Origin: Escherichia coli
GTDB taxonomy: Bacteria > Pseudomonadota > Gammaproteobacteria > Enterobacterales > Enterobacteriaceae
Assembly: GCA_025544715.1 (NCBI GenBank)
Contig: GCA_025544715.1_4109.5
DNA: 23,806 nucleotides
Reading direction: 5' to 3' (one strand)
Shown here: positions 1-15,111 of the stretch, in pieces
Layout of the letters: the number at the start of each line of letters is the position of its first letter
Position numbering within the stretch: the stretch's first letter is position 1
Position numbers and translations under genes: made by a program
Notes under the pieces: generated by a model
The model's input: the letters and a program-made list of their open reading frames with translations, nothing else
Told to the model about the DNA's origin: nothing
Databases searched by the model: none

Positions 1-51
1 GTATAGTACTGAAAGCATTAATCAATGACAGAAAAAAGTTAAAATAATCTA

Positions 52-80
52 TTGACAATATCATCCAGTACTGGCATAAT
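52..80 (+). promoter_or_regulatory. sigma70-type promoter
   Basis: TTGACA (52-57), 17-nt spacer containing AGTACTG, CATAAT (75-80), then conserved ACTTACATCAAG start region. Confidence 0.6.
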
Positions 81-140
81 ACTTACATCAAGACGAGAAC
101 GTCACTAACCCATAGGGTGCACAAATGTAACTGTCTAATA

Positions 141-176
141 TTGATCAAAAAATGATCTGATCAATACTTGATCAAT
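141..176 (+). promoter_or_regulatory. cluster of TTGATCAA palindromes (four GATC sites in about 32 bp)
   Basis: attgatcaaaaaatgatctgatcaatacttgatcaatttg read directly; overlaps -35 of next promoter. Confidence 0.4.
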
Positions 177-195
177 TTGCGTAAAGTAGTATAAT
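168..195 (+). promoter_or_regulatory. candidate sigma70-type promoter
   Basis: TTGATC (168-173), 16-nt spacer, TATAAT (190-195). Confidence 0.45.
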
Positions 196-378
196 TCTAT
201 GCAGTTGGTTAGACGAAAGGTTATGATTAGTAGTGGAAGTGTATAAAAATTTTCATGGTGTATCGTTTCGCACATATGGCAATGAATATGTGGTATCATG
301 TGGATTGGAAAAAGTAAGAACAAGTAATATTATTGTCGCATTACAGTACTATAGTATTTTTATAATGAGGTTAAAATA

Positions 379-636
379 ATGGCTGTAGGATTCACAAAAG
401 ATGGGGCCGAGCAAGACGAGATTAACGCAGTGATTCAGGCCGCTGTTAACCACGCTAGAACGCAAATTAACGCACAAATAGAATCACTGATACATTGCCT
501 CGACTGCGGTGATAAAATCCCTGAGAATCGCCGCCAGGCCGTTAAGGGGTGTAAGTACTGCATAACTTGCCAGGAGGATCATGATAGTATTTTTAAACGT
601 CAACCGCGTAATTGTTGGCATAGATCTATGAGATAA
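379..636 (+). CDS. TraR/DksA-family C4 zinc-finger protein (85 aa)
   Basis: GAGG 8 nt upstream of ATG; paired Cys motifs CLDCGDKIP...CKYCITCQ typical of TraR/DksA zinc fingers. Confidence 0.75.
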   Translation: MAVGFTKDGAEQDEINAVIQAAVNHARTQINAQIESLIHCLDCGDKIPENRRQAVKGCKYCITCQEDHDSIFKRQPRNCWHRSMR

Positions 637-642
637 AAAGTA

Positions 643-670
643 TTGACAGTACTGAAAGATAGTGTATACT
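643..670 (+). promoter_or_regulatory. sigma70-type promoter
   Basis: TTGACA (643-648), 16-nt spacer with AGTACTG, TATACT (665-670). Confidence 0.6.
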
Positions 671-699
671 ATTTTATATCTTAACTGAGGATTGAAATC

Positions 700-1056
700 A
701 TGGGTATTCAACACATCACGCGTACTACTGACAATGGCGAGATCACTGGCTATCAAGTACAGGGCAAAGTAGCACAATTGCAGTACTGGTTTGTAAAACG
801 TGGATTGATTGCACCGGATCTTGATTATGACCGTGTAGCGTTTATTGATTCTCTTTATGTTGATCCTGATAGTCGGGGCAATGGTGAAGGTAACGAATTA
901 ATGAATGCCTTTATTGATGCCGCCGATGATTCAGATTGTATCATTTTAGAATGCGATACGGGAGAAGATAACGCCTTTAATCTTAAAGAATGGTACGAAG
1001 GTTTCGGATTCGAGGTACTGATCGATAGTGAATATCCTATCATGATTTTATCATAG
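700..1056 (+). CDS. small GNAT-like N-acetyltransferase (118 aa)
   Basis: GAGG RBS; VDPDSRGNGEGNELM resembles GNAT motif A (R-x-x-G-x-G) and C-terminal FNLKEWYEGFGF resembles motif B; judged by eye only. Confidence 0.55.
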   Translation: MGIQHITRTTDNGEITGYQVQGKVAQLQYWFVKRGLIAPDLDYDRVAFIDSLYVDPDSRGNGEGNELMNAFIDAADDSDCIILECDTGEDNAFNLKEWYEGFGFEVLIDSEYPIMILS

Positions 1057-1059
1057 TAC

Positions 1060-1088
1060 TTGCATTTAGTTTTCAGTACTGTTATAGT
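1060..1088 (+). promoter_or_regulatory. sigma70-type promoter
   Basis: TTGCAT (1060-1065), 17-nt spacer with AGTACTG, TATAGT (1083-1088), ACTTACATCAAG downstream. Confidence 0.6.
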
Positions 1089-1100
1089 ACTTACATCAAG

Positions 1101-1117
1101 GGGAAACATCTTCCCCT
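1101..1117 (+). other. 5' leader stem-loop (GGGGAA / TTCCCC)
   Basis: 6-bp inverted repeat just downstream of predicted transcription start, upstream of RBS. Confidence 0.5.
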
Positions 1118-1128
1118 ACTAAGAGGAA

Positions 1129-1323
1129 ATGAAAATGGAAAACTTATCAAGTATTTTAGTACAAGATGATTTCGGTAATCCTGGAAGTGCTATCATTGTT
1201 CGGGGTAATAAAGCAACATTTGTTATTGCTGGTGGACCTGTACAGCGTAGCATTAAAAACAATGCCGTTACTATTAATAATGTACGCTATCGCTTAGATA
1301 AAGAATTGATTCATAAACTGTAA
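1129..1323 (+). CDS. hypothetical protein (64 aa)
   Basis: ORF after promoter, hairpin and AAGAGG; in-frame ATG at 1135 is an alternative start. Confidence 0.6.
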   Translation: MKMENLSSILVQDDFGNPGSAIIVRGNKATFVIAGGPVQRSIKNNAVTINNVRYRLDKELIHKL

Positions 1324-1350
1324 TATTAATTTAATAGAGGATAACAATAA

Positions 1351-1674
1351 ATGTACATTCATACTACTATCACAAAGGAAGTCCGTTGCCAGTTCGAAAG
1401 TATTCCGGGCGTATGTTTCATCACTGGTACGTTTTCCCCTGGTGATCGTGATAATCCAGTACTGTTACAATTACGCCATCCATCATGGGATAAAGCATTT
1501 GATCTACCGTTGAATGAATTCGCAACTACTGCTGAAAAGTACATTAAAAATATTCGTGAGAATGATCGACTATTCATTAATGCTTTTAGTGATTCCGCGT
1601 TAAGCGAGATCCACGGCGTATTGGTTGCAATCATGGAATCAATGGAGAAAACTAAATTCAAACAAGGTGAATAA
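1351..1674 (+). CDS. hypothetical protein (107 aa)
   Basis: GAGGA RBS 8-9 nt upstream of ATG. Confidence 0.65.
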   Translation: MYIHTTITKEVRCQFESIPGVCFITGTFSPGDRDNPVLLQLRHPSWDKAFDLPLNEFATTAEKYIKNIRENDRLFINAFSDSALSEIHGVLVAIMESMEKTKFKQGE

Positions 1675-1680
1675 AAACTA

Positions 1681-1709
1681 TTGACAATGTAATCTAGTAC
1701 TGTATAATA
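1681..1709 (+). promoter_or_regulatory. sigma70-type promoter (consensus)
   Basis: TTGACA (1681-1686), 17-nt spacer with AGTACTG, TATAAT (1704-1709). Confidence 0.7.
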
Positions 1710-1720
1710 AGTTACATGAA

Positions 1721-1741
1721 GGGGAGAAAATGATTCTCCCC
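1721..1741 (+). other. 5' leader stem-loop (GGGGAGAA / TTCTCCCC)
   Basis: perfect 8-bp inverted repeat with 5-nt loop between promoter and RBS. Confidence 0.6.
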
Positions 1742-1758
1742 ACTGAGAGGAAAGAAAA

Positions 1759-1971
1759 ATGCAAGGTCAACTAATCGTTCGTAAATGGTCTGATACTAAT
1801 GAAAAACCGTGGGATGTTCAATACATCGGACCGGATGGGGTATCACGTTATCAGCCTGGCGTAACGCATAGTACTGAGCAATTCGCCAACGCTCACCGCG
1901 AACGCCTGTTAGAATCCATGAAACAGGGATACGGTGAAAAATTCATTCAAGATCATTGGCTGAAAGATTAA
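1759..1971 (+). CDS. hypothetical protein (70 aa)
   Basis: promoter, leader hairpin, GAGAGG RBS, ATG. Confidence 0.7.
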   Translation: MQGQLIVRKWSDTNEKPWDVQYIGPDGVSRYQPGVTHSTEQFANAHRERLLESMKQGYGEKFIQDHWLKD

Positions 1972-1988
1972 TATAAGGAGTACAGCTT

Positions 1989-2081
1989 ATGCAAATGAAT
2001 CCGATGATTATTGTTTTAGCTGTACTTATGATCATTCATGCAATAGTAGAAGTATTAAATCAATCAGGAGTAATAAAATGA
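1989..2081 (+). CDS. small hydrophobic peptide (30 aa, MQMNPMIIVLAVLMIIHAIVEVLNQSGVIK)
   Basis: AAGGAG 8 nt upstream of ATG; below ORF-track size cutoff; stop overlaps next start (ATGA). Confidence 0.4.
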   Translation: MQMNPMIIVLAVLMIIHAIVEVLNQSGVIK

Positions 2082-2251
2082 TCCAGGTAGAATTAACAGT
2101 ACTGAAAGATCTGTTTTATCGGTTAGGTACTACTGGCGAGTATCCTAAAAGTGATACCGCAAAACTTTTTGTATCACTCGATTTATGGCAACGCGAACAA
2201 TTAGTAATGTCCTGGCGTAAAGGTAAAGCAGATAGCGAGGTGAAAGCATGA
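2078..2251 (+). CDS. hypothetical small protein (57 aa)
   Basis: translated by hand; ATGA overlap with neighbours on both sides. Confidence 0.45.
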   Translation: MIQVELTVLKDLFYRLGTTGEYPKSDTAKLFVSLDLWQREQLVMSWRKGKADSEVKA

Positions 2252-2397
2252 AAGAATTCTTATTCGAAGTAGTGTTTCAAGGTGTCGGTAGTAACCAACT
2301 GATTCGCTCAAGTGGTTACAATGTTAACCAGGCATGGAATAACATTAAACAAATGTACCCGAACGCTATCACATATCGCAACCCGAAAGAAGTTTAA
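2248..2397 (+). CDS. hypothetical small protein (49 aa)
   Basis: translated by hand; ATGA overlap upstream; ends just before terminator-like hairpin. Confidence 0.45.
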   Translation: MKEFLFEVVFQGVGSNQLIRSSGYNVNQAWNNIKQMYPNAITYRNPKEV

Positions 2398-2411
2398 AAA
2401 GAATTGAAAAA

Positions 2412-2433
2412 GGGATTGACTCCGGTCAGTCCC
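2412..2433 (+). terminator. terminator-like hairpin GGGATTGAC-TCCG-GTCAGTCCC
   Basis: 9-bp stem with one G-U pair and 4-nt loop, preceded by A-run, followed by TTTGCTATTATATA. Confidence 0.5.
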
Positions 2434-2444
2434 TTTGCTATTAT
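2416..2444 (+). promoter_or_regulatory. promoter embedded in hairpin
   Basis: TTGACT (2416-2421), 17-nt spacer, TATTAT (2439-2444). Confidence 0.55.
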
Positions 2445-2535
2445 ATACGCATAGAAACAAATCAGCCCACAGGGTGCATAAATGTATCTATTGTTTGCTG
2501 GTGGCTAGTACTGAAAACTATTTTTAAAAAAGTAC

Positions 2536-2563
2536 TTGCATTGTACTTAGAATCAAGTATAAT
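2536..2563 (+). promoter_or_regulatory. sigma70-type promoter of the AAAAAGTACTTGCA class
   Basis: A-tract, TTGCAT (2536-2541), 16-nt spacer, TATAAT (2558-2563), GTTTTACAT downstream; same cassette at 5262, 6118, 6453, 7961. Confidence 0.6.
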
Positions 2564-2651
2564 GTTTTACATCAGGACGGGGAACGAAACAAGTAACCCC
2601 GTTAAGTAGTCCAGGAGTAAGACATAAGAAAACCTCCCCTGATAAAATAGT

Positions 2652-2680
2652 TTGACAATAGAAAGTAAACGAGTATAATA
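2652..2680 (+). promoter_or_regulatory. sigma70-type promoter (consensus)
   Basis: TTGACA (2652-2657), 17-nt spacer, TATAAT (2675-2680), ACTTACATCAA downstream. Confidence 0.7.
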
Positions 2681-2712
2681 CTTACATCAACCACTGATAA
2701 GGAAACATTAAA

Positions 2713-2988
2713 ATGCGGATTCTACTGACAGCTAACGAAATCGAACAAGTACTGACTACTAACCTGGAAGACTGGAAACGTGAAGCAGATATCCAGGCGG
2801 TTCAATGGCTTAACGATAAGTTAACGCCGGATGACTTAAGCAAGATTGTAGATCCTCAATTCTACGAAGATATTCACGACACCGCGTTAAGCGTCGAGGA
2901 TGTACTTGATAAGCACTACATTGATATTGATTTGCAGGTTTACGGTCGTAAAAACTTTATCACTATTCACGACATTTACAATAATTAA
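2713..2988 (+). CDS. hypothetical protein (91 aa)
   Basis: AAGGA RBS 10 nt upstream of ATG; promoter upstream. Confidence 0.7.
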   Translation: MRILLTANEIEQVLTTNLEDWKREADIQAVQWLNDKLTPDDLSKIVDPQFYEDIHDTALSVEDVLDKHYIDIDLQVYGRKNFITIHDIYNN

Positions 2989-2991
2989 GTA

Positions 2992-3019
2992 TTGACAAAG
3001 TATCTTAGTACTGTATAAT
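2992..3019 (+). promoter_or_regulatory. sigma70-type promoter (consensus)
   Basis: TTGACA (2992-2997), 16-nt spacer with AGTACTG, TATAAT (3014-3019); almost identical to promoter at 5569. Confidence 0.7.
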
Positions 3020-3034
3020 AGTTTACATCAAGGC

Positions 3035-3052
3035 AGGGGGAATGGTTCCCCT
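3035..3052 (+). other. 5' leader stem-loop (AGGGGGA / TTCCCCT)
   Basis: inverted repeat with AATGG loop between promoter and RBS. Confidence 0.55.
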
Positions 3053-3076
3053 CCTAACTAAAAGAGAGAAATTAAA

Positions 3077-3400
3077 ATGGCTATGATCCTGTCCCAGAAA
3101 GTAGAACTGAAAATTGTAACCTCCTTTGACATTAAAGTGAATCGCTGGACTGATCGGAACGGTAACACTTACCACTCTTGCTACGTGTCCGCATTGATTG
3201 GTGATCGCTGGGAGGATTTAGGACACGAAACATTTACATACGGTTACGGCACTCAAGGCGAATACACGGGCTTGGAGATCATTAAAGAAACCGTTATAGG
3301 TTTCAACCCGAAAGAAAACGTTATTCACCGCATCGAGGAAGAGATCAACAAAGAAATAACAGTTCGCTACTACGATGTAAAACGTAAGAAAGATATGTAA
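3077..3400 (+). CDS. hypothetical protein (107 aa)
   Basis: promoter, leader hairpin, purine-rich RBS, ATG. Confidence 0.7.
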   Translation: MAMILSQKVELKIVTSFDIKVNRWTDRNGNTYHSCYVSALIGDRWEDLGHETFTYGYGTQGEYTGLEIIKETVIGFNPKENVIHRIEEEINKEITVRYYDVKRKKDM

Positions 3401-3422
3401 TAGAATCCATTTAAAGTACTAT

Positions 3423-3451
3423 TTGACATTGCCCAGATAGTACTTTATAAT
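3423..3451 (+). promoter_or_regulatory. sigma70-type promoter (consensus)
   Basis: TTGACA (3423-3428), 17-nt spacer with AGTACT, TATAAT (3446-3451). Confidence 0.7.
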
Positions 3452-3495
3452 AGACTCTAACTTGTAGTACTAACTTAACTAATAGGATATATACC

Positions 3496-3891
3496 ATGAT
3501 TACTAAATTCTACGCTACCCGTGAAGCTGCCCGTATTGTTGCACGCGAGGAAGGAGAAGCATTTAAAGACATGGGCAAAGATGCACCGAAAGGCCAACGC
3601 TGGGCCGTACAGTTCAAAGAAATCTCTGATATTGTGAATTCACCTGAGCCAGTACTAACAGCAGAAGAACAAAAACAAGCTGAAGAACTGGCGGCAATTC
3701 TTAACGCTCAAGATGAATTCGTCGCGGGTACTGATATCCAGGTTGTAGTAAATTCGAATGCATGGACTCACGCGGATCACCTGGCAAACCTGAAGCGTCC
3801 AAGTGAACTGATTCGCAACCAAAAAGAGATCCGTCATGACCGTAAGGGAAACCGTGTTACCGTATACAGTAAACGCCGCCAGGTTATCTAA
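3496..3891 (+). CDS. hypothetical protein (131 aa)
   Basis: AGGA RBS; consensus promoter upstream; followed by strong terminator. Confidence 0.7.
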   Translation: MITKFYATREAARIVAREEGEAFKDMGKDAPKGQRWAVQFKEISDIVNSPEPVLTAEEQKQAEELAAILNAQDEFVAGTDIQVVVNSNAWTHADHLANLKRPSELIRNQKEIRHDRKGNRVTVYSKRRQVI

Positions 3892-3913
3892 TAACTTGCA
3901 GTACTAACAACAC

Positions 3914-3938
3914 GGCGGGATCAGTTCCCGCCTTTTTT
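3914..3938 (+). terminator. rho-independent terminator
   Basis: GGCGGGA-TCAGT-TCCCGCC 7-bp GC-rich stem followed by TTTTTT. Confidence 0.8.
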
Positions 3939-3953
3939 ATAGGATAAACTAAA

Positions 3954-4208
3954 ATGATGAAGGTACAACTATCTAAAGATAATATCTTGCGGGTACACTA
4001 TAAAGCACCACAGAGAATCATCACAAAGGCCGTACAGCTTGCTAATGAGTTTATTAATGGTAGTCTATTACCCAGGAAGTTAAGCAACGGGAAACTACGT
4101 GTTATCGATGTAGACACTAACAACAGAATAGTAATTGAGAATACTGGAAAGATAAACCTTTATGAGCATCAACAGTATAATAAGAAAATAAAACTAATAT
4201 CACGTTGA
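3954..4208 (+). CDS. hypothetical protein (84 aa)
   Basis: AGGA RBS then ATG; lies directly after terminator, so expression may rely on read-through. Confidence 0.6.
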   Translation: MMKVQLSKDNILRVHYKAPQRIITKAVQLANEFINGSLLPRKLSNGKLRVIDVDTNNRIVIENTGKINLYEHQQYNKKIKLISR

Positions 4209-4233
4209 CAGTACTCAAATGTTTTAGTACTAT
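4205..4233 (+). promoter_or_regulatory. candidate sigma70-type promoter
   Basis: TTGACA (4205-4210) overlapping upstream stop codon, 17-nt spacer with two AGTACT, TACTAT (4228-4233). Confidence 0.5.
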
Positions 4234-4262
4234 GTATCTATACCAACACGGGGGAAAACAAA

Positions 4263-4505
4263 ATGATTACTTTAGAAAAACGTATCAAAGAAACTACATC
4301 GCTGGTGGAACTGTTAACTGTACTGAAATGCCGTACTACTCGGTTTAGTACACCGGACTTTATTAATATGGTTGATGTTAACGGTCGTTATCGCATTGCA
4401 GTAGAACAAGGAACAGCGAAAGTATTCAGTACTAAAAACACTAAGGAAGTGATTCACGCTGTAAGTGTTAAAAAAGTAGTTGCAATTGATAGTAAAGTAC
4501 TGTAA
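4263..4505 (+). CDS. hypothetical protein (80 aa)
   Basis: GGGGGA RBS then ATG. Confidence 0.6.
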   Translation: MITLEKRIKETTSLVELLTVLKCRTTRFSTPDFINMVDVNGRYRIAVEQGTAKVFSTKNTKEVIHAVSVKKVVAIDSKVL

Positions 4506-4536
4506 GATAGTTACATTAACTCAAGGAGAACATGCA

Positions 4537-5121
4537 ATGCGTCAATATACTAAATTCATCCGGTCCCTGTCAGAAATGGAAACTAATAAAGAGATCCTTT
4601 CAGCTTGTCGGTTAGCTGGTCTGGAAATCATCGGGGCCGGATCATCCCGTATAGTATTCGCTTTAAATGATCGGTTAGTGATTAAGGTCGCTAATTGTGA
4701 TGCGGGTGTAGAACAAAATGAAACTGAATGTAAGGTATGGAATTTTTTAGACTATGACCGCCCTCAGTTGAAACAGTTCTTTGCTAAGGTGCATATGCAT
4801 TTAAGCGATCCTGATAATATGTTTATTGTTATGGATCGTTTGAGTACTGCAAGCAAAGGCAGTGTAAAGCACGTTAACGCGTGCAACGAATTAAAGTACA
4901 ATATTAAACGTAATGCCATTGAACGCCAGCACCGCTTTGCTGATGCATTACAACACGTTGATGATACCTTATCAACCCTAACGTTAAGAGATATCAGAAA
5001 ACAGAACATCGGCCAGGATCGCAACGGCCTTATTAAAGTACTTGATTACGGTTTAACCCGCAATATCTGGAATCAGTACTATAAAAAGCGTGATGTAAAA
5101 GCCGTAACTATAACACGATAA
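4537..5121 (+). CDS. minimal protein-kinase-like protein (194 aa)
   Basis: AGGAGA RBS 7 nt upstream of ATG 4537 (ORF track extends to 4480). Gly-rich loop IGAGSSRIVF, then VIKV lysine, catalytic-loop-like DIRKQNIG (D-x-K-x-x-N) and DFG-like LDYG. Confidence 0.55.
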   Translation: MRQYTKFIRSLSEMETNKEILSACRLAGLEIIGAGSSRIVFALNDRLVIKVANCDAGVEQNETECKVWNFLDYDRPQLKQFFAKVHMHLSDPDNMFIVMDRLSTASKGSVKHVNACNELKYNIKRNAIERQHRFADALQHVDDTLSTLTLRDIRKQNIGQDRNGLIKVLDYGLTRNIWNQYYKKRDVKAVTITR

Positions 5122-5135
5122 AAAAGATTAAAAAT

Positions 5136-5157
5136 GGGATTGACTTCGGTCAGTCCC
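5136..5157 (+). terminator. terminator-like hairpin GGGATTGAC-TTCG-GTCAGTCCC
   Basis: 9-bp stem, UUCG tetraloop, U-containing tail; directly after stop of kinase-like gene. Confidence 0.5.
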
Positions 5158-5168
5158 TTTGCTATTAT
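5140..5168 (+). promoter_or_regulatory. promoter embedded in hairpin
   Basis: TTGACT, 17-nt spacer, TATTAT (5163-5168). Confidence 0.55.
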
Positions 5169-5261
5169 ATATTCATTGAGAGATAGCTCACTGACCCACA
5201 GGGTGCAGAAGTGTATCTATTATATAAGTATTCAGTACTGAAAACTATTTTTAAAAAGTAC

Positions 5262-5290
5262 TTGCAAACTATCTCAAATCGCGTATAATG
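5262..5290 (+). promoter_or_regulatory. sigma70-type promoter of the AAAAAGTACTTGCA class
   Basis: TTGCAA (5262-5267), 17-nt spacer, TATAAT (5285-5290). Confidence 0.6.
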
Positions 5291-5301
5291 TTTTATATCG
5301 A

Positions 5302-5323
5302 GAGGGGGAAATGGTTCTCCCTG
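5302..5323 (+). other. 5' leader stem-loop (GGGGGAA / TTCTCCC)
   Basis: inverted repeat with AATGG loop; the loop ATG is the spurious ORF-track start at 5311. Confidence 0.55.
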
Positions 5324-5343
5324 GTACATTAAGGAATAAAATC

Positions 5344-5565
5344 ATGACTACAATGACTTGCATTCACGCTTCAAACCTGCTTAATGATGCGGCCTTTAAT
5401 GTTGAAACAGAATATCAATGTTATCGGGATGAAAATAAAAAAGTTTTTGTAGTTGATAATAATGGTTTCCATATTGAATTGCAATCCGGTTTCACTGGCA
5501 TTGATGGTAAATCAGTATGGGGCGTACAGGACGATAAAGGCACATATCATTTTAAACGTAATTAA
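5344..5565 (+). CDS. hypothetical protein (73 aa)
   Basis: start moved from 5311 (hairpin loop) to ATG 5344, 8 nt after AAGGA. Confidence 0.6.
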   Translation: MTTMTCIHASNLLNDAAFNVETEYQCYRDENKKVFVVDNNGFHIELQSGFTGIDGKSVWGVQDDKGTYHFKRN

Positions 5566-5568
5566 GTA

Positions 5569-5596
5569 TTGACAAAGTATATCAGTACTGTATAAT
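5569..5596 (+). promoter_or_regulatory. sigma70-type promoter (consensus)
   Basis: TTGACAAAGTAT-ATCAGTACTG-TATAATAGTTTACATCAAGG, near-identical to 2992-3033. Confidence 0.7.
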
Positions 5597-5608
5597 AGTT
5601 TACATCAA

Positions 5609-5627
5609 GGGGAGAATAGTTCTCCCC
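5609..5627 (+). other. 5' leader stem-loop (GGGGAGAA / TTCTCCCC)
   Basis: perfect 8-bp inverted repeat, loop TAG. Confidence 0.6.
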
Positions 5628-5649
5628 GATACTAAAAGGAAACAAAATT

Positions 5650-5922
5650 ATGTCTAGCTACTCCGCTACTATGATCATTAAAGATATGAACGGTAATCCT
5701 ACTTCTGCTGGTGGATCATTTGGAAACATTAACTTAGATGGTCGGTTATCAATTGAATCAGCCATCAATGCAGCGAAAGAAGTTTTTAAGAATGAATGTA
5801 CTGTAAGCAAGCTGGATTATATGGGCTTCGCTATCGAAAAAACTAATCGTTTTGTGGACTACAAAAAACCACTGATGATTGATACTAACCTGAAAGCGAA
5901 CGAAGTGGAATACTTATTATGA
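5650..5922 (+). CDS. hypothetical protein (90 aa)
   Basis: AAGGA RBS then ATG. Confidence 0.65.
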   Translation: MSSYSATMIIKDMNGNPTSAGGSFGNINLDGRLSIESAINAAKEVFKNECTVSKLDYMGFAIEKTNRFVDYKKPLMIDTNLKANEVEYLL

Positions 5923-6110
5923 CAGTTGAAGAAGTTAAAAAAGTACTGGCAGTACTACGCTATCATAATCATTGCAAGGTTAAGAATGATCCTGATTATC
6001 TTGATTCATCCCTGGAAGAGGATACACTACAAGCAATAAGCCATATGCAAAAAATGCTTAAGCGTATGACTGAAAAGAATAGACCGGACTATATCGGAAA
6101 TAAAATTTAA
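5919..6110 (+). CDS. hypothetical protein (63 aa)
   Basis: ATGA overlap with upstream stop, suggesting translational coupling. Confidence 0.55.
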   Translation: MTVEEVKKVLAVLRYHNHCKVKNDPDYLDSSLEEDTLQAISHMQKMLKRMTEKNRPDYIGNKI

Positions 6111-6117
6111 AAAGTAC

Positions 6118-6145
6118 TTGCATTGTAGTTAGATTAACGTATAAT
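6118..6145 (+). promoter_or_regulatory. sigma70-type promoter of the AAAAAGTACTTGCA class
   Basis: TTGCAT (6118-6123), 16-nt spacer, TATAAT (6140-6145). Confidence 0.6.
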
Positions 6146-6157
6146 GTTTTACATAGA

Positions 6158-6178
6158 GCGGGGGAATAGTTCTCCCGC
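6158..6178 (+). other. 5' leader stem-loop (GCGGGGGAA / TTCTCCCGC)
   Basis: 9-bp stem with one G-U pair; same hairpin repeated at 7132-7152. Confidence 0.6.
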
Positions 6179-6196
6179 CAGTCCAGGAGATACACC

Positions 6197-6463
6197 ATGA
6201 ACACTATCGAAATCACTATCAATGCTCACGTATACGACAACGTAGTACTGCAAACTACTATGACCGCTCACGATACCAGTACTTTGCGGAATACCGTTGT
6301 AAGTGCTGTATGTGCTGCAATCGGTGATGTAGCCCTGGAAAATGCAGAACACATCAACAACGGTTTCACTATGTGCAAGCGTGATAACGCAAAACATATC
6401 ATCGTAGAAGGTTACGGCGGTGTAGAATATAACCTTTATATGAAAAAAGTACTTGCATCGTAA
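6197..6463 (+). CDS. hypothetical protein (88 aa)
   Basis: CCAGGAG RBS then ATG. Confidence 0.65.
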   Translation: MNTIEITINAHVYDNVVLQTTMTAHDTSTLRNTVVSAVCAAIGDVALENAEHINNGFTMCKRDNAKHIIVEGYGGVEYNLYMKKVLAS

Positions 6464-6480
6464 TTAAAACAAAGTATAAT
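6453..6480 (+). promoter_or_regulatory. sigma70-type promoter overlapping end of upstream CDS
   Basis: AAAAAGTACTTGCAT with TTGCAT at 6453-6458, 16-nt spacer, TATAAT (6475-6480). Confidence 0.55.
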
Positions 6481-6490
6481 GTTTTGCATA

Positions 6491-6509
6491 GGGGGAGATA
6501 TCCTCCCCC
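6491..6509 (+). other. 5' leader stem-loop (GGGGGAG / CTCCCCC)
   Basis: perfect 7-bp inverted repeat, loop ATATC. Confidence 0.6.
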
Positions 6510-6528
6510 ACTAATAAGGAGTACTAAA

Positions 6529-6753
6529 ATGGCTAATCATGATGACCTGATTCGGGAAGTAGCTAACCTGGCGGCAGAAAAGAAATCATTCGATTCTATC
6601 TATAACACCGCTCACCGTGATTCAGTACTGGCATCAACGCAAGATCAAAAAGATGAACTGATCGCCACCTATCATGAAGCATGGAAGTATTACCGCCAAT
6701 GGGAGAAAGAAGAAAGTGAGTCTACCATTGACGGCCTCAATAATCTAATCTAA
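6529..6753 (+). CDS. hypothetical protein (74 aa)
   Basis: ORF-track start 6484 is a TTG upstream of the hairpin; ATG 6529 follows AAGGAG RBS. Confidence 0.65.
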   Translation: MANHDDLIREVANLAAEKKSFDSIYNTAHRDSVLASTQDQKDELIATYHEAWKYYRQWEKEESESTIDGLNNLI

Positions 6754-6771
6754 AGTTTTATTTCAGTACTA

Positions 6772-6800
6772 TTGACAATACTGGATAGTACTGATATGAT
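6772..6800 (+). promoter_or_regulatory. sigma70-type promoter
   Basis: TTGACA (6772-6777), 17-nt spacer with AGTACTG, TATGAT (6795-6800). Confidence 0.55.
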
Positions 6801-6827
6801 AACTTTACTATCTAAAGGGGAAACATA

Positions 6828-7085
6828 ATGGAACAGTTCACACAATATCGGGTAAATCCTCAAGCTATGGCCTATGTAGAAGACCATAAAACATTACCAG
6901 TACTGCAACCAGTTAAAGGTCATATCTATCGTGCAATGTCATGGAGTAACGCCCAGGATGGATATACTACCGCCGCCGTGGGTATGTACTGCGGGAATGG
7001 TGAATGGTTTGATCCTAGTAATCCGGTAGCCATTGACAGTACTGAAAAAATGAAATGGGCCGACTACATCGAAGATATTTCATAA
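6828..7085 (+). CDS. hypothetical protein (85 aa)
   Basis: AAAGGGGA RBS then ATG. Confidence 0.65.
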   Translation: MEQFTQYRVNPQAMAYVEDHKTLPVLQPVKGHIYRAMSWSNAQDGYTTAAVGMYCGNGEWFDPSNPVAIDSTEKMKWADYIEDIS

Positions 7086-7091
7086 AACTAT

Positions 7092-7119
7092 TTGACAGTA
7101 CTAACCAGTAATGTATAAT
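7092..7119 (+). promoter_or_regulatory. sigma70-type promoter
   Basis: TTGACA (7092-7097), 16-nt spacer with AGTACT, TATAAT (7114-7119), GTTTTACATAGAG downstream. Confidence 0.65.
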
Positions 7120-7131
7120 GTTTTACATAGA

Positions 7132-7152
7132 GCGGGGGAATAGTTCTCCCGC
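7132..7152 (+). other. 5' leader stem-loop (GCGGGGGAA / TTCTCCCGC)
   Basis: identical to hairpin at 6158-6178. Confidence 0.6.
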
Positions 7153-7174
7153 CAATAGTTTGGAGTAAAACATT

Positions 7175-7375
7175 ATGTCTATCGCTATCGCCCTGGTTGA
7201 AGTACTGAAAGAAGCTAAAGCCAACCTTATCGATGTACAGATTAAGGAATTGCAAAATGGTTTAATCGGCTGTACTTGTACCGCTGGTGGAGCGGCAGAC
7301 TATCGGGAATTCGAATCACTTGAATCGATGGTCCGTTATCTTACCATGATCGTAGAAGATTGGAGAATCATCTAA
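7175..7375 (+). CDS. hypothetical protein (66 aa)
   Basis: GGAG RBS then ATG. Confidence 0.6.
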   Translation: MSIAIALVEVLKEAKANLIDVQIKELQNGLIGCTCTAGGAADYREFESLESMVRYLTMIVEDWRII

Positions 7376-7393
7376 CAAAAAAGAATAAAAAAA

Positions 7394-7415
7394 GGGATTG
7401 ACTCCGGTCAGTCCC
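7394..7415 (+). terminator. terminator-like hairpin GGGATTGAC-TCCG-GTCAGTCCC
   Basis: same hairpin as 2412-2433. Confidence 0.5.
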
Positions 7416-7426
7416 TTTGCTATTAT
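7398..7426 (+). promoter_or_regulatory. promoter embedded in hairpin
   Basis: TTGACT, 17-nt spacer, TATTAT (7421-7426). Confidence 0.55.
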
Positions 7427-7538
7427 ATACGCATAGACAAAAACTAGCCCACTGGGTGCAGGAGTGTATCCAAAATATATAGTTAATAACGGTGAGTAAC
7501 TATTTGCTGGTGGAGTGAAAACTATTAATAAAAAACTA

Positions 7539-7567
7539 TTGACAAAGTATATCAGTACTGCAATAAT
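7539..7567 (+). promoter_or_regulatory. candidate sigma70-type promoter
   Basis: TTGACAAAGTATATCAGTACTG then AATAAT; weaker -10 than sibling promoter at 5569. Confidence 0.5.
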
Positions 7568-7620
7568 GTATCTCGTAGGGCGGCAATGGTGCGACGGCCC
7601 ACAAAGTTAGGAGTAACATC

Positions 7621-7953
7621 ATGTCTACATCAATCGCTATCGTTAAAGCTTTCATCCGTACCAATGTTTCTTCTGTATTCATCGACGGTCTGGATCGGGA
7701 AGTAGAATACTCAATCATTATCGCACAGACTGCAAACGGTGCTCGGTACATCCTGAATGATAGTGAAGCAAATCACTACTACTTCACTAAAGCTACTGGC
7801 TTTAAACGCATCGATGCTGACGTAGTATACGCTAAGATGAATAAGCTGGTAGACAAGATTAACGCTAAAGGTACTATAGATTTACAGTACTGGAACGAAA
7901 CCGATCCAGAATACGGATCTCACCGCTACCTGAATCCAGGAATTAAAATGTAA
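7621..7953 (+). CDS. hypothetical protein (110 aa)
   Basis: TTAGGAG RBS then ATG; GC-rich leader hairpin upstream. Confidence 0.7.
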   Translation: MSTSIAIVKAFIRTNVSSVFIDGLDREVEYSIIIAQTANGARYILNDSEANHYYFTKATGFKRIDADVVYAKMNKLVDKINAKGTIDLQYWNETDPEYGSHRYLNPGIKM

Positions 7954-7960
7954 AAAGTAC

Positions 7961-7988
7961 TTGCATAGTACTTAGAATCAAGTATAAT
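7961..7988 (+). promoter_or_regulatory. sigma70-type promoter of the AAAAAGTACTTGCA class
   Basis: about 45 bp identical to promoter at 2527-2570. Confidence 0.6.
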
Positions 7989-8000
7989 GTTTTACATAGA

Positions 8001-8022
8001 GAGGGAGAAATGGTTCTCCCTC
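8001..8022 (+). other. 5' leader stem-loop (GAGGGAGAA / TTCTCCCTC)
   Basis: perfect 9-bp inverted repeat with ATGG loop; loop ATG is the spurious ORF-track start 8010. Confidence 0.6.
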
Positions 8023-8042
8023 CTAAATTAAGGAGTTTTATC

Positions 8043-8444
8043 ATGACCTTCTCAATCAATTCCTTCGCTGACGTTTTAGTACTGGCACGGACTTTCGGTA
8101 AAGATGCACTGGAGTACGCTGTAAGTAATGGCACTATCCAACCGGAACAATGCCGCATCATTGGAAACTGCAAACGTTGGGCGGTATCCAATACTATTGC
8201 ACTGGAAAACTTCAACGATGGCAACAATGAATATTCTGTTGATGTAGTATTCGAAGCCGTTGATCTCGGCGGTATCTATAACACTAACTTGAATGATGTG
8301 CGTATCGTTCGCACGGGGTTCGGTGCTTATGATGTATCTATCCGTGAAGCTATGGACAAGGGATACATTAGCAAGGACTTACTTGCTCACATCATGCAGC
8401 TGTGGACGGAACGTAACGAAGCACGTACTATCTTAGGGCTGTAA
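8043..8444 (+). CDS. hypothetical protein (133 aa)
   Basis: start moved from 8010 to ATG 8043, which follows AAGGAG RBS. Confidence 0.65.
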   Translation: MTFSINSFADVLVLARTFGKDALEYAVSNGTIQPEQCRIIGNCKRWAVSNTIALENFNDGNNEYSVDVVFEAVDLGGIYNTNLNDVRIVRTGFGAYDVSIREAMDKGYISKDLLAHIMQLWTERNEARTILGL

Positions 8445-8468
8445 GCAATACACATCACCAAACATCAT

Positions 8469-8488
8469 AGGCCGCTCTCTAGCGGCCT
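8469..8488 (+). other. GC-rich palindrome AGGCCGCT-CTCT-AGCGGCCT
   Basis: 8-bp perfect inverted repeat in AT-rich context; no U-run, so not a classic terminator. Confidence 0.35.
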
Positions 8489-8512
8489 TAACTATATCAG
8501 GAGGGCATACAT

Positions 8513-8722
8513 ATGTTCTATACCGTATACAGCGTTCTAGGTACTATTGCAGGCGTACATGATAACGTCAATGATGCTATGCGTACAGTACTGCAACAGG
8601 TTCCACTAAAGCCTAAGACTGTTAAGCAGATGACAGCACGACTAACCAGGGCGACGGATGGCGTGGAAGTATGGCAGGACTACGGGGATACACAGATAAT
8701 CGTTAGCGTAACGAAGGATTAA
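8513..8722 (+). CDS. hypothetical protein (69 aa)
   Basis: AGGAGG RBS then ATG. Confidence 0.6.
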   Translation: MFYTVYSVLGTIAGVHDNVNDAMRTVLQQVPLKPKTVKQMTARLTRATDGVEVWQDYGDTQIIVSVTKD

Positions 8723-8750
8723 TGCGTAAAGGGATCTAGTACTGATTCAG

Positions 8751-8816
8751 AAAAAAGTCAAGGCGTTTTTAAAATTATGCGTTAAAAAAATGCATAGGTA
8801 ATCCCTTGACTTTTTT
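8751..8816 (+). other. 13-bp perfect inverted repeat flanking a 40-bp spacer; possible bidirectional terminator or operator
   Basis: AAAAAAGTCAAGG (8751-8763) and CCTTGACTTTTTT (8804-8816) are exact reverse complements; inner TATGC/GCATA pair. Confidence 0.35.
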
Positions 8817-8913
8817 GAAATAAAAGGGATTGGACTATGGCAAAATGCGTAGGGGGCTAAAGGGCGGGTAACCTTAGCGACTTCGATAAAGGGGTATTAC
8901 GAATAAAATGTTA

Positions 8914-8941
8914 TTGACTTTTTATATGAATCGTATAAAAT
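8914..8941 (+). promoter_or_regulatory. candidate promoter for the paralog array
   Basis: TTGACT (8914-8919), 16-nt spacer, TAAAAT (8936-8941). Confidence 0.5.
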
Positions 8942-8971
8942 ATGATTGATATTAATTTTAAGGGAGTCCCT

Positions 8972-9169
8972 ATGCATATTTTAACTCAAGCAGAACACCA
9001 CGAAAGACTTATCAATAACATGGCTATGATAATGTATAAGTCACATGAACGTGGTATGTCCTATAAGCGTGAATTAGTTATGGCACTATTCATTGGGACT
9101 AACTTTCAGGAAAGGTATGTCAACGATTGGATTTGGTATTTAATTGAAGATATAACGAGTAAACTATGA
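8972..9169 (+). CDS. family-1 paralog 1 (LGTNYQ-motif small protein)
   Basis: AAGGGAG RBS then ATG 8972 (ORF-track start 8942 is upstream of the RBS); C-terminal LFIGTNFQERYV...IEDITSKL. Confidence 0.65.
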   Translation: MHILTQAEHHERLINNMAMIMYKSHERGMSYKRELVMALFIGTNFQERYVNDWIWYLIEDITSKL

Positions 9170-12011: not shown

Positions 12012-12040
12012 TATTGAAAATAAATGCGAGGATAATGAAC

Positions 12041-15059: not shown

Positions 15060-15082
15060 GAGTACTGATAGTACAAATGTTC

Positions 15083-15111
15083 TTGACTGTACTTTTCATT
15101 ACTGATATAGT
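15083..15111 (+). promoter_or_regulatory. candidate sigma70-type promoter
   Basis: TTGACT (15083-15088), 17-nt spacer, TATAGT (15106-15111). Confidence 0.5.

What the first reader, a model, noticed from the sequence alone, without database searches (positions are those of the whole stretch)
52..7988. Promoters occur as long conserved cassettes of two classes
Beyond the hexamers, promoters share extended sequence. Class I is TTGACA, N16-17 ending AGTACTG, TATAAT, then (A)GTTTACATCAAGG or ACTTACATCAAG (52, 1060, 1681, 2652, 2992, 5569). Class II is TTTTAAAAAGTACTTGCA, N16, TATAAT, then GTTTTACATAGAG (2536, 5262, 6118, 6453, 7961; 7092 is a hybrid). Some pairs are identical over more than 40 bp (2992 and 5569; 2527 and 7953). 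This points to copy-and-paste spread of regulatory cassettes.
Basis: seen in the sequence. Interest (0 to 1): 0.5.

Follow-up and report, generated by a model that had tools for sequence, protein, structure and literature searches.

The report
Recombining early-promoter cassettes of a jumbo phage
The repeated promoter blocks are real: they are strong early promoters with a 5' hairpin and ribosome site in the terminal repeat of a giant E. coli phage, and recombination between them adds, removes and swaps small genes, as already described for T4-type phages.

Summary
Window 1-8050 carries 20 plus-strand sigma-70-type promoters, all intergenic. Similarity runs well beyond the hexamers, covering the A-rich upstream tract, the spacer, the start-site region TTTACAT, and in 11 of 17 a G-run/C-run hairpin before the ribosome site.

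The window lies in the early region of an Asteriusvirus (121Q/PBECO4-like) jumbo phage, inside what relatives annotate as a roughly 21-kb direct terminal repeat. Against eight relatives, all nine gene-sized indels end in this regulatory DNA. Seven show the crossover signature: two cassette copies flank an unrelated extra gene in one genome, and one chimeric cassette remains in the other.

A 513-bp block bounded by cassettes is 94% identical in an unrelated 146-kb phage, muut.

This matches the promoter-early stem-loop (PeSL) cassettes of T4-type phages, so it is a new member of a known kind. "Copy-and-paste" is better read as homologous exchange between dispersed repeats.

Unexplained extras:
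- AGTACT palindromes sit at fixed promoter positions and are conserved inside genes.
- Chi sites are clustered and all point the same way.

The parts
31..93 (+). Promoter P52: A-rich tract, -35 TTGACA 52-57, AGTACTG in spacer, TGG-CATAAT 75-80, ACTTACATCAAG. It has no gene directly downstream and is followed by the conserved box at 109-131.
633..699 (+). Promoter P643: -35 TTGACA 643-648 overlapping AGTACT at 648, -10 TATACT 665-670, ribosome site, ATG at 700. No hairpin.
   Evidence: left end of the deletion found in PBECO4, BF17 and SD-6
1052..1128 (+). Hybrid cassette P1060: AGTAC-TTGCAT 1060-1065, CAGTACTG, TATAGT 1083-1088, ACTTACATCAAGG, hairpin 1099-1117, ribosome site, ATG at 1129.
   Evidence: right end of the same deletion
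1671..1758 (+). Class I cassette P1681: -35 1681-1686, AGTACTG, -10 1703-1708, hairpin 1721-1741, ribosome site, ATG at 1759.
2396..2488 (+). Composite terminator/promoter (third class). Hairpin AAAGGGATTGACTCCGGTCAGTCCCTTT at 2409-2436 contains the -35 TTGACT (2416-2421); -10 TATTAT at 2439-2444; conserved box CCCACAGGGTGCATAAATGTATC at 2466-2488.
   Evidence: (family D7)
2519..2603 (+). Class II cassette P2536: AAAAAAGTAC-TTGCAT 2536-2541, -10 2558-2563, GTTTTACATCAGG, hairpin 2576-2603. Followed by a conserved leader up to about 2650.
   Evidence: its -10 is the left end of the block shared with phage muut
2640..2712 (+). Class I-type promoter P2652: -35 2652-2657, -10 2674-2679, ACTTACATCAAC. 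It has neither AGTACT nor a hairpin. ATG at 2713.
   Evidence: duplicated around an extra gene in 121Q
2982..3076 (+). Class I cassette P2992: -35 2992-2997, AGTACTG, -10 3014-3019, hairpin 3031-3055, ribosome site, ATG at 3077.
   Evidence: chimera of the two copies that flank an extra 60-aa gene in six relatives; right end of the muut block
3411..3495 (+). Promoter P3423: AGTACT at 3415 and 3439, -35 3423-3428, -10 3446-3451. No hairpin. ATG at 3496.
4193..4262 (+). Promoter P4205: TTGAC-AGTACT 4205-4215, -10 TACTAT 4228-4233, ATG at 4263.
   Evidence: duplicated around an extra 72-aa gene in five relatives
5120..5217 (+). Composite terminator/promoter: hairpin 5136-5157 containing the -35 TTGACT (5140-5145), -10 TATTAT 5163-5168, conserved box 5195-5217.
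5245..5343 (+). Class II cassette P5262: AAAAAGTAC-TTGCAA 5262-5267, -10 5284-5289, GTTTTATATCGAG, hairpin 5303-5322, ribosome site, ATG at 5344.
   Evidence: the spacer at this locus differs between relatives
5559..5649 (+). Class I cassette P5569: -35 5569-5574, AGTACTG, -10 5591-5596, hairpin 5609-5627, ribosome site, ATG at 5650.
   Evidence: duplicated around about 390 bp of extra DNA in CMSTMSU
6104..6196 (+). Class II cassette P6118: -35 TTGCAT 6118-6123, -10 6140-6145, GTTTTACATAGAG, hairpin 6158-6178, ribosome site, ATG at 6197.
   Evidence: left partner of the deletion in 121Q
6441..6528 (+). Class II cassette P6453: -35 6453-6458, -10 6475-6480, GTTTTGCATAGG, hairpin 6491-6509, ribosome site, ATG at 6529.
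   Evidence: right partner of the deletion in 121Q
6757..6827 (+). Promoter P6772: AGTACT at 6765 and 6787, -35 6772-6777, -10 TATGAT 6795-6800. No hairpin. ATG at 6828.
7083..7174 (+). Hybrid cassette P7092: TTGAC-AGTACT 7092-7102, -10 7114-7119, class II downstream half, hairpin 7132-7152, ATG at 7175.
   Evidence: 42-nt exact run shared with P6118; absent together with its gene in BF17
7378..7470 (+). Composite terminator/promoter: hairpin 7391-7418 containing the -35 TTGACT (7398-7403), -10 TATTAT 7421-7426, conserved box 7448-7470.
7525..7620 (+). Class I-type cassette P7539: -35 7539-7544, AGTACTG, -10 AATAAT 7562-7567, a different hairpin at 7575-7602, ATG at 7621.
   Evidence: duplicated around an extra gene in 121Q
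7949..8042 (+). Class II cassette P7961: AAAAAGTAC-TTGCAT 7961-7966, -10 7983-7988, GTTTTACATAGAG, hairpin 7997-8025, ribosome site, ATG at 8043.

Best explanation
Window 1-8.5 kb is a host-takeover (early) gene module in the long terminal repeat of an Asteriusvirus jumbo phage. Nearly every small gene or gene pair has its own portable expression cassette. The cassette has four parts: an A-rich upstream tract; near-consensus -35 and -10 hexamers for the host sigma-70 RNA polymerase; a conserved start-site region (TTTACAT, start inferred at the A, 8 nt after the -10); and, in most copies, a G-run/C-run hairpin 1-6 nt into the transcript followed by a strong ribosome-binding site.

Shown here: the cassettes are dispersed repeats of 50-100 bp, and homologous recombination between them has repeatedly deleted, inserted or replaced the unrelated genes that lie between them. 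It has also swapped cassette halves. A gene with its flanking cassettes has moved into a phage of another family.

Inferred, not shown:
- The promoters fire immediately after infection with host polymerase.
- The hairpin protects the 5' end of the mRNA and insulates the ribosome site from upstream sequence, rather than terminating transcription, because no U-tract follows it.
- The three composite elements do terminate upstream transcripts and restart transcription.
For: Identity of the region:
- 95% identity to Asteriusvirus phages, with matches in 74 phage records.
- It maps inside the annotated direct terminal repeat 1-21525 of vB_Ec-M-J. Klebsiella phage Muenster shows the same architecture in its 20-kb terminal repeat.
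- The genes include a DksA/TraR zinc finger, a GNAT acetyltransferase, a ParE-like domain and a weak kinase match.

Promoter quality and extended similarity.

Hairpins:
- 11 of 17 cassettes fold at -10.6 to -16.8 kcal/mol at a fixed position.
- Several different stem sequences occur.
- Cognate arms fold better than swapped arms (-12.7 against -9.7 kcal/mol).

Recombination:
- All nine gene-sized indels against eight relatives end in regulatory DNA.
- Seven have 48-109 bp of cassette homology at both ends. Three-way alignments show the single copy matching the left copy on its left and the right copy on its right.
- The five annotated extra genes tested have no paralog in the region, which excludes tandem duplication.

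Cross-family transfer: window 2557-3069 matches phage muut (Stephanstirmvirinae) at 483 of 515 positions. The block runs from the -10 of one cassette to the hairpin of the next.

Precedent:
- PeSL cassettes in RB49/phi1, T4/PST and KVP40/nt-1 (PMC2839356, PMC4122927).
- T4 early promoters carry consensus beyond the standard elements (PMC2988021).
- The related phage PA5oct depends on host RNA polymerase (PMC7318152).
Against: - No transcription start sites or expression data exist for this phage group in the literature I could search, so promoter use, start site and timing are inferred from sequence.
- Shuffle z-scores for single hairpins are modest (-0.75 to -3.1), because G and C runs pair even after shuffling. 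A sequence-only alignment gave a poor consensus structure.
- Six of 17 promoters have no hairpin, so it is not obligatory.
- Two of the nine indels (1324-1672 and 7088-7377) have only A-rich microhomology at the junction, not cassette homology.
- Gene-sized indels that survive must end between genes anyway. The location of breakpoints alone is therefore weak evidence. The chimeric cassettes are what carry the argument.
Confidence: 0.8

Rival explanations
1. The extended conservation mainly reflects operator sites. The AGTACT palindrome built into the cassettes would be bound by a phage-specific (or injected) protein that switches early promoters off or on. The two classes would differ only in which of two boxes they keep. 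This reading can coexist with the recombination account.
For: - 16 of 17 promoters carry AGTACT at one of three fixed positions overlapping the polymerase footprint.
- Muenster, from a different genus, carries both boxes in most of its promoters: AAGTAC-TTGACA-N10-CAGTACTG-TATAAT.
- There are 51 copies in 8.5 kb against 2.7 expected.
- Sites inside genes occur in all three reading frames.
- Those coding sites are 96% conserved across eight relatives, against 72% for other coding 6-mers.
- The motif is not consistently present in the similar cassettes of muut and LTH01.
Against: - No DNA-binding protein was identified among the 20 early proteins scanned.
- The motif is also common outside the early region of 121Q, at 4-9 per 2 kb, so it is not promoter-specific.
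- It explains neither the conserved start-site region nor the hairpin nor the chimeric junctions.
- P2652 and the three composite promoters lack the motif.
Confidence: 0.3
2. The hairpins are transcription terminators or attenuators that insulate each gene from upstream read-through, as proposed and partly tested for PeSL stem-loops. On this view they are not 5' mRNA stabilisers.
For: - The PeSL stem-loop of RB49 terminated transcription in a reporter assay (PMC2839356).
- Hairpins built from a G-run followed by a C-run are typical of PeSLs.
- The three composite elements in the window do look like intrinsic terminators, with a stem of 9-12 pairs followed by a T-rich tail.
Against: - The class I/II hairpins lie downstream of their own promoter, so they would also stop its transcripts.
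- None is followed by a T-run; the sequences that follow include CACTGAGAGG, CGATACTAAAAGG and CCAGTCCAGGAG.
- The terminator scan lists none of the class I/II 5' hairpins on the + strand.
Confidence: 0.2
3. The cassettes are autonomous mobile elements that copy themselves to new sites by a dedicated recombinase or transposase. This is the literal copy-and-paste reading.
For: - Many near-identical copies are dispersed over 8 kb.
- The same cassette types occur in three other phage lineages.
Against: - The junctions of the seven cassette-homology events show no target-site duplication, and no terminal inverted repeats were seen.
- No recombinase domain was found in the 20 early proteins scanned.
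- Crossover points fall at different positions within the shared core.
- Cassettes always sit in the same functional position and orientation in front of a gene.
Confidence: 0.05
4. The similarity is convergence. Any very strong sigma-70 promoter with an upstream A-tract would look like this, and no shared ancestry or exchange is needed.
For: - T4 early promoters also show consensus beyond the hexamers (PMC2988021).
- A-rich upstream tracts and consensus hexamers are expected for strong promoters.
Against: - Spacer sequences and 5' leaders, which are not constrained by polymerase contacts, are near-identical between particular pairs, with exact runs of up to 42 nt.
- Mosaic combinations and chimeric junctions occur across genomes.
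Confidence: 0.04

Closest known systems
PeSL (promoter-early stem-loop) regulatory cassettes of T4-type phages RB49/phi1, T4/PST and KVP40/nt-1 (Arbiol et al. 2010, PMC2839356; Comeau et al. 2014, PMC4122927)
   Same: - A sigma-70 consensus early promoter with an A/T-rich upstream tract and an adjacent stable stem-loop, often a G-run followed by a C-run.
- Conservation over roughly 100 bp.
- Intergenic position in front of small genes of unknown function in a variable region.
- Indels between close relatives flanked by two cassettes in one genome and a single chimeric cassette in the other.
- The composite elements here, with the -35 inside a terminator hairpin, correspond to the PeSL subclass in which the stem-loop overlaps the -35.
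   Different: - The host lineage is a Rak2-like jumbo phage (Asteriusvirus), not a T4-type phage.
- The region is a long direct terminal repeat rather than internal hyperplastic regions.
- In class I/II the hairpin lies in the transcribed leader and lacks a U-tract, so a terminator role is unlikely.
- AGTACT boxes are built into the promoters.
- Mini-circles and terminator activity were shown experimentally for PeSLs and could not be tested here.
T4 early promoters, described as 'uber' UP/-35/TGn/-10 promoters (Hinton 2010, PMC2988021)
   Same: - Host-polymerase promoters with excellent hexamers and an upstream A-tract.
- Additional regions of consensus of unknown role.
- Used to outcompete host promoters immediately after infection.
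   Different: - Most cassettes here lack a correctly spaced TGn. The TG of AGTACTG abuts the -10 directly, except in the 17-nt-spacer promoters flagged (P52, P6772, P7539).
- The conserved extras are different sequences.
- No counterpart of the T4 Alt modification is known here.
RpoD-like promoters predicted in the Rak2-like phage vB_PcaM_CBB (Buttimer et al. 2017, PMC5259590) and the TTGAC/TATAATA promoters of PA5oct (Lood et al. 2020, PMC7318152)
   Same: - Same broad phage group.
- Consensus sigma-70 promoters with an upstream A-tract, concentrated in front of short hypothetical genes in the early region and the terminal repeat.
- PA5oct relies on host polymerase and has highly expressed non-coding RNAs in its terminal repeat.
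   Different: Those papers list promoters only as motif hits. I found no description there of cassette classes, 5' hairpins, AGTACT boxes or recombination at promoters.
Host-takeover module in the terminal redundancy of Bacillus phage SPO1, and the pre-early genes in the terminal repeat of T5 (recalled from memory, not checked here)
   Same: Many small early genes in a long terminal repeat, each unit driven by unusually strong host-type promoters and ribosome sites.
   Different: - Different hosts and unrelated sequences.
- To my knowledge, recombination between promoter repeats is not the described feature of those modules.
Integron gene cassettes (the analogy drawn by Arbiol et al.)
   Same: Small promoter-associated units that let unrelated genes be gained and lost at a dedicated site.
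   Different: No integrase and no attC-type sites. Exchange here appears to use general homologous recombination, and each gene brings its own promoter.

Membership tests
PeSL regulatory cassettes | [quoted passage not shown] | tested here: met
   20 plus-strand sites score 10-12 of 12, and six are perfect. A-rich tracts lie upstream.
PeSL regulatory cassettes | An adjacent sequence able to form a stable stem-loop, frequently a G-run followed by a C-run, positioned upstream of, within or just downstream of the promoter | tested here: met
   11 of 17 class I/II cassettes have hairpins of -10.6 to -16.8 kcal/mol downstream of the -10. Three composite elements have a hairpin overlapping the -35. 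Six promoters have none.
PeSL regulatory cassettes | Repeated, with conservation spread over up to about 100 bp, and concentrated in variable regions in front of small genes of unknown function | tested here: met
   Repeat families D1, D4, D6 and D7 span 52-97 nt. All copies are intergenic in front of 49-194-aa genes. Only 5 of the 20 proteins scanned gave any Pfam match at E <= 0.01.
PeSL regulatory cassettes | Insertions, deletions and replacements between closely related phages are bounded by the cassettes, leaving a chimeric cassette | tested here: met
   Seven of nine indels against eight relatives show this pattern. The five annotated extra genes tested have no paralog in the region.
PeSL regulatory cassettes | The stem-loop acts as an effective transcription terminator | not testable with these tools
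   By sequence alone, the composite elements look like intrinsic terminators. The class I/II hairpins lack a T-run and lie after their own promoter, which argues against that role.
PeSL regulatory cassettes | Recombination between neighbouring cassettes produces small circular DNAs during infection | not testable with these tools
   This needs inverse PCR on infected cells or virions.
PeSL regulatory cassettes | Found in T4-type myoviruses (the group in which the family was defined) | tested here: not met
   The window belongs to Asteriusvirus. The CBB paper places Rak2-like phages as distant relatives of T4-like phages by portal protein (PMC5259590). This concerns host range of the concept, not mechanism.
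Intrinsic (rho-independent) terminator | G+C-rich hairpin followed directly by a run of T | tested here: met
   Met only for the three composite elements at 2409-2436, 5136-5157 and 7391-7418, and for 3914-3932. A compensatory stem variant, GGGA/TCCC against GTGG/CCAT, occurs in relatives.

The most novel reading that the evidence does not exclude
The AGTACT palindrome is an undescribed regulatory or recombination signal of Rak2-like jumbo phages. An ancestral early promoter would carry two boxes, one abutting the -35 and one abutting the -10, as still seen in Klebsiella phage Muenster. The two Asteriusvirus classes each keep one box, and further copies are held under selection inside early genes. 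A phage-encoded or injected protein binding these boxes would time early transcription. Alternatively it would mark the terminal repeat for recombination, acting together with the co-oriented Chi cluster.
Probability: 0.3. Interest if true: 0.65.

Novelty: new member of a known kind. Interest (0 to 1): 0.45.

Why it matters
It extends the PeSL idea beyond T4-type phages. In PeSLs, promoters double as recombination linkers that let phages trade small accessory genes without disrupting expression. Here the same arrangement appears in the terminal-repeat early region of 350-kb jumbo coliphages, and one case crosses between phage families.

Three practical consequences follow:
- It explains why the early regions of otherwise 90-95% identical Asteriusvirus genomes differ by whole genes.
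- It gives a rule for predicting indel boundaries when annotating these genomes.
- It supplies a set of compact, probably very strong, self-contained expression cassettes.

The AGTACT boxes and the oriented Chi cluster are concrete, testable leads on how such phages control early transcription and recombination in their terminal repeats.

Tried and rejected
Searches that found nothing:
- Rfam, at gathering thresholds over the whole window and at E <= 1 over 1-9000: no match to any cassette, leader or box.
- IMG/VR pattern scans for the two cassette cores: the class II pattern found nothing, and the class I core found only 121Q itself, so no wider distribution could be read from that collection.
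- Literature searches for Asteriusvirus, 121Q, PBECO4, phAPEC6, RaK2 and GAP32 combined with promoter or stem-loop terms, for PeSLs combined with jumbo, and for CAGTACTG: no description of these cassettes or of the motif. The CAGTACTG hits examined were primers or unrelated papers.

Analyses that were uninformative:
- A sequence-only alignment of 34 hairpin regions with a consensus fold. Stems of different length were misaligned and only five weak pairs were recovered. I replaced it with single-sequence folds and an arm-swap test.
- An automated scan for promoter swaps at orthologous loci. The 70% threshold was too coarse, so I rely on the explicit sequences.

Readings considered and dropped:
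- Tandem duplication as the source of the extra genes. Rejected because the five annotated extra genes tested have no paralog in the window or the eight loci.
- AGTACTG as an extended -10. Rejected for most promoters because the TG abuts TATAAT with no intervening base. It fits the 17-nt-spacer promoters flagged (P52, P6772, P7539).
- TACTGTAT as a LexA box. Only one half-site is present.
- AGTACT as a binding site for the host protein SlmA. I keep it only as a weak lead.

Full report
**What the window is.** The first 8.4 kb matches 74 phage records. The best are Escherichia phages CRJP21 and SP27 at about 95% identity, and 121Q at about 90%. All are Asteriusvirus, the 350-kb "Rak2-like" jumbo myoviruses. 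All genes are on the + strand and most encode 49-194 residues. In phage vB_Ec-M-J, the segment matching window 2557-3069 lies at 14168-14678 inside an annotated direct terminal repeat spanning 1-21525. Klebsiella phage Muenster, from the sister genus Alcyoneusvirus, shows the same layout in its 20,030-bp predicted terminal repeat. The few recognisable proteins fit a host-takeover module: a DksA/TraR zinc finger, a GNAT acetyltransferase, a ParE-like domain and a weak protein-kinase match.

**Checking the observation.**
- Six sites are perfect TTGACA-N16/17-TATAAT. My composition estimate expects about 0.01.
- All 20 promoters found are on the + strand, between genes, and 25-90 nt from a start codon.
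- With the hexamers masked, the 17 class I/II promoters average 40% pairwise identity, against 26.5% for random segments. Twenty-seven of 136 pairs exceed the 99.9th percentile of that control.
- Conserved columns include the A-tract at about -45 to -38, the last spacer bases, and TTTACAT after the -10.

**Corrections to the observation.**
- 1060 is a hybrid (AGTAC-TTGCAT, TATAGT).
- 52 has CATAAT.
- 2652 has no AGTACTG.
- The two pairs called identical over more than 40 bp have exact runs of 27 and 30 nt, at 50/52 and 45/46 identity.
- 6118 and 7092 do share a 42-nt exact run.

- Eleven of the 17 promoters are followed by a hairpin built from a G-run and a C-run. It starts 1-6 nt after the inferred start site, folds at -10.6 to -16.8 kcal/mol, and is followed by a strong ribosome site.
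- Several different stems occupy the same position across nine genomes: GGGGAGAA/TTCTCCCC, GAGGGGAA/TTCCCCTC, GGGGAAAC/GTTTCCCC, GGGGGAG/CTCCCCC and ACGGGG/CCCCGT.
- Cognate arms fold better than arms swapped between cassettes (-12.7 against -9.7 kcal/mol).
- Single-sequence shuffle z-scores are modest, and a sequence-only alignment gave a poor consensus. The hairpin is therefore supported mainly by its recurrence at a fixed place.
- There is a third cassette type at 2396-2488, 5120-5217 and 7378-7470. A terminator-like hairpin, AAAGGGATTGACTCCGGTCAGTCCCTTT, contains the -35 TTGACT, and its T-rich tail runs into the -10 TATTAT. Relatives carry a compensatory stem variant (GTGG/CCAT for GGGA/TCCC). 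Similar elements occur elsewhere in 121Q.

**Are there two classes?** Across the window and eight relatives, 206 promoter instances are dominated by two combinations. One is TTGACA + AGTACTG abutting the -10 + AGTTTACAT (47 instances). The other is AGTAC-TTGCA + GTTTTACAT (59 instances). About 30 are hybrids of these modules. The same locus can also carry different halves in different genomes. The classes are real as an association, but the units that assort are half-cassettes.

**What the cassettes do to the genome.** I aligned window 1-9000 against eight relatives and found nine gene-sized differences. Seven have a cassette at both ends:
- Extra genes flanked by two copies of P2992 (six relatives), P4205 (five relatives), P2652 and P7539 (121Q), and P5569 (CMSTMSU).
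- Deletions between P6118 and P6453 (121Q), and between P643 and P1060 (PBECO4, BF17, SD-6).

In three-way alignments, the single cassette matches the left copy on its left flank and the right copy on its right flank. The switch falls inside the shared core, at different places in different events. The five annotated extra genes tested have no paralog anywhere in the region, so these are not tandem duplications. The remaining two indels (1324-1672 and 7088-7377) have only A-rich microhomology at the junction.

**Exchange beyond the genus.** Window 2557-3069 is 94% identical (483 of 515 positions) to Escherichia phage muut, a 146-kb member of Stephanstirmvirinae. The block runs from the -10 of P2536 through its leader, P2652, gene 2713-2988 and P2992 into that cassette's hairpin. 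Homology stops inside a cassette at each end. Only muut has the whole block outside Asteriusvirus, whereas most of the 39 full-length matches are Asteriusvirus-sized genomes. That suggests transfer from the jumbo phage lineage. A Vequintavirinae phage, LTH01, carries a class II-like cassette 87% identical to P6118, next to a 71.5%-identical homologue of gene 5650-5922.

**Mechanism: shown and inferred.** Shown: the cassettes are dispersed repeats, and crossovers within them account for gene gain, loss and replacement. Inferred: they are host sigma-70 early promoters. The basis is the consensus match, the position in a terminal repeat, the dependence of the related PA5oct on host polymerase (PMC7318152), and similar predictions for CBB (PMC5259590). 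The start site at the A of TACAT is also an inference.

The class I/II hairpins have no T-run and lie after their own promoter. I therefore favour a 5' mRNA-stabilising and context-insulating role over termination. The composite elements look like true terminator-plus-promoter units. None of this has been tested experimentally.

**Comparison with what is known.** The closest known system is the PeSL of T4-type phages. PeSLs combine a sigma-70 early promoter, an A/T-rich upstream tract and a G/C-run stem-loop. They are conserved over about 100 bp, sit in front of small orphan genes in variable regions, and flank the indels that distinguish RB49 from phi1, T4 from PST and KVP40 from nt-1 (PMC2839356, PMC4122927). 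Four defining features were tested here and met. Terminator activity and mini-circles cannot be tested with these tools. The phage lineage differs.

T4 early promoters are also known to carry consensus beyond the standard elements (PMC2988021). I found no paper describing such cassettes in Asteriusvirus, other Rak2-like phages, rV5-like phages or phi92-like phages. The finding is therefore a new member of a known kind.

**The AGTACT palindrome.**
- It occurs 51 times in 1-8500, against 2.7 expected.
- 16 of 17 class I/II promoters have it at one of three fixed places: just 5' of the -35, just 3' of the -35, or abutting the -10.
- Muenster promoters usually carry two boxes at once, which suggests that the two Asteriusvirus classes each keep one.
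- Copies inside genes occur in all three reading frames.
- Those coding copies are 96% conserved across eight relatives, against 72% for other coding 6-mers.
- The motif is also frequent outside the early region of 121Q, and it is densest in a 2-kb gene-free stretch rich in TTCAGTACTGAA.
- A sequence-specific protein seems the likeliest explanation, but I could not identify one.

**The Chi cluster.** Chi (GCTGGTGG) occurs six times on the + strand in 1228-7513 and never on the - strand of the whole window, against 0.09 expected per strand. The same pattern holds in all eight relatives and in Muenster. By the established orientation rule, these sites act on RecBCD moving from high to low coordinates. 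They may protect the terminal-repeat copy at the right end of the genome and raise recombination in this region.

**Verdict.** The phenomenon has a clear precedent.

Noticed in passing
window 1-8750 (70 sites in the whole window, 53 of them before 8750); further clusters at 13513-15604 and 23549-23761: The palindrome AGTACT, often extended to CAGTACTG or AGTACTGAAA, occurs about 19 times more often than expected. It sits at fixed positions in 16 of 17 promoters. Inside genes it is found in all three reading frames and is 96% conserved across eight relatives, against 72% for other coding 6-mers. It is almost absent from the paralogous gene arrays at 9-13.5 kb and 16-23.5 kb. It is also abundant in Klebsiella phage Muenster (89 copies in 12 kb) and in a 2-kb gene-free stretch of 121Q.
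   Followed up: partly
window 1228, 2497, 4301, 5707, 7283, 7506 (+ strand): There are six Chi sites (GCTGGTGG), all on the + strand, and none on the - strand of the 23.8-kb window, against 0.09 expected per strand. The same co-oriented cluster occurs in all eight Asteriusvirus relatives (6-8 sites each) and in the Muenster terminal repeat (4 sites). In 121Q 100-150 kb, six of the seven + strand sites lie in the early region.
   Followed up: partly
window 109-131, 2466-2488, 5195-5217, 7448-7470: A conserved 23-nt box, CCCAYNGGGTGCnnnnnTGTAWC, lies about 20-30 nt into the transcript of P52 and of each composite terminator/promoter. It is also present in Klebsiella phage Muenster. It has no Rfam match and no obvious strong structure, and its function is unknown.
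   Followed up: partly
window 2604-2650: The leader between P2536 and P2652 holds a hairpin with a conserved 16-nt loop, TAAGACATAAGAAAAC. Its stem differs in a compensatory way between lineages: GGAG/CTCC in Asteriusvirus and muut, ACTTG/CAAGT in the rV5-like phage LTH01, and ACCTG/CAGGT in Muenster. This is a candidate non-coding RNA motif shared by four phage lineages, with no Rfam match. The covariation was read by eye from five sequences only.
   Followed up: partly
window 140-195: Four GATC sites lie within 31 nt (TTGATCAAAAAATGATCTGATCAATACTTGATCAA). They overlap the -35 of a promoter-like site, TTGATC-N16-TATAAT, at 168-195. This could be a Dam-methylation-sensitive or SeqA-binding spot.
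   Followed up: no
window 9000-15000 and 17260-20200: Arrays of tightly packed, often overlapping genes of about 70 residues belong to paralogous families (repeat families D2, D3, D5, D8-D12, D17, D18 and D20). They have almost no cassette-type promoters (one search lists only weak hexamer matches beyond 8.9 kb) and almost no AGTACT. This contrasts sharply with the one-promoter-per-gene layout of 1-8.5 kb.
   Followed up: no
window 8757-8816: An inverted repeat, AAAAAAGTCAAGG ... CCTTGACTTTTTT, with arms about 35 nt apart, lies in the 219-nt gene-free stretch that separates the promoter-cassette region from the paralogous gene arrays.
   Followed up: no
L009 (121Q) 35150-37200, i.e. 121Q 135.2-137.2 kb, upstream of the window's equivalent: A 2-kb stretch has no annotated gene. 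It is dense in TTCAGTACTGAA-type palindromes and in short GGCTAGA/GGATGGCT-type repeats, with Chi sites on both strands. It lies at the start of the promoter-cassette region and may be an origin, a packaging site or a terminal-repeat boundary.
   Followed up: no
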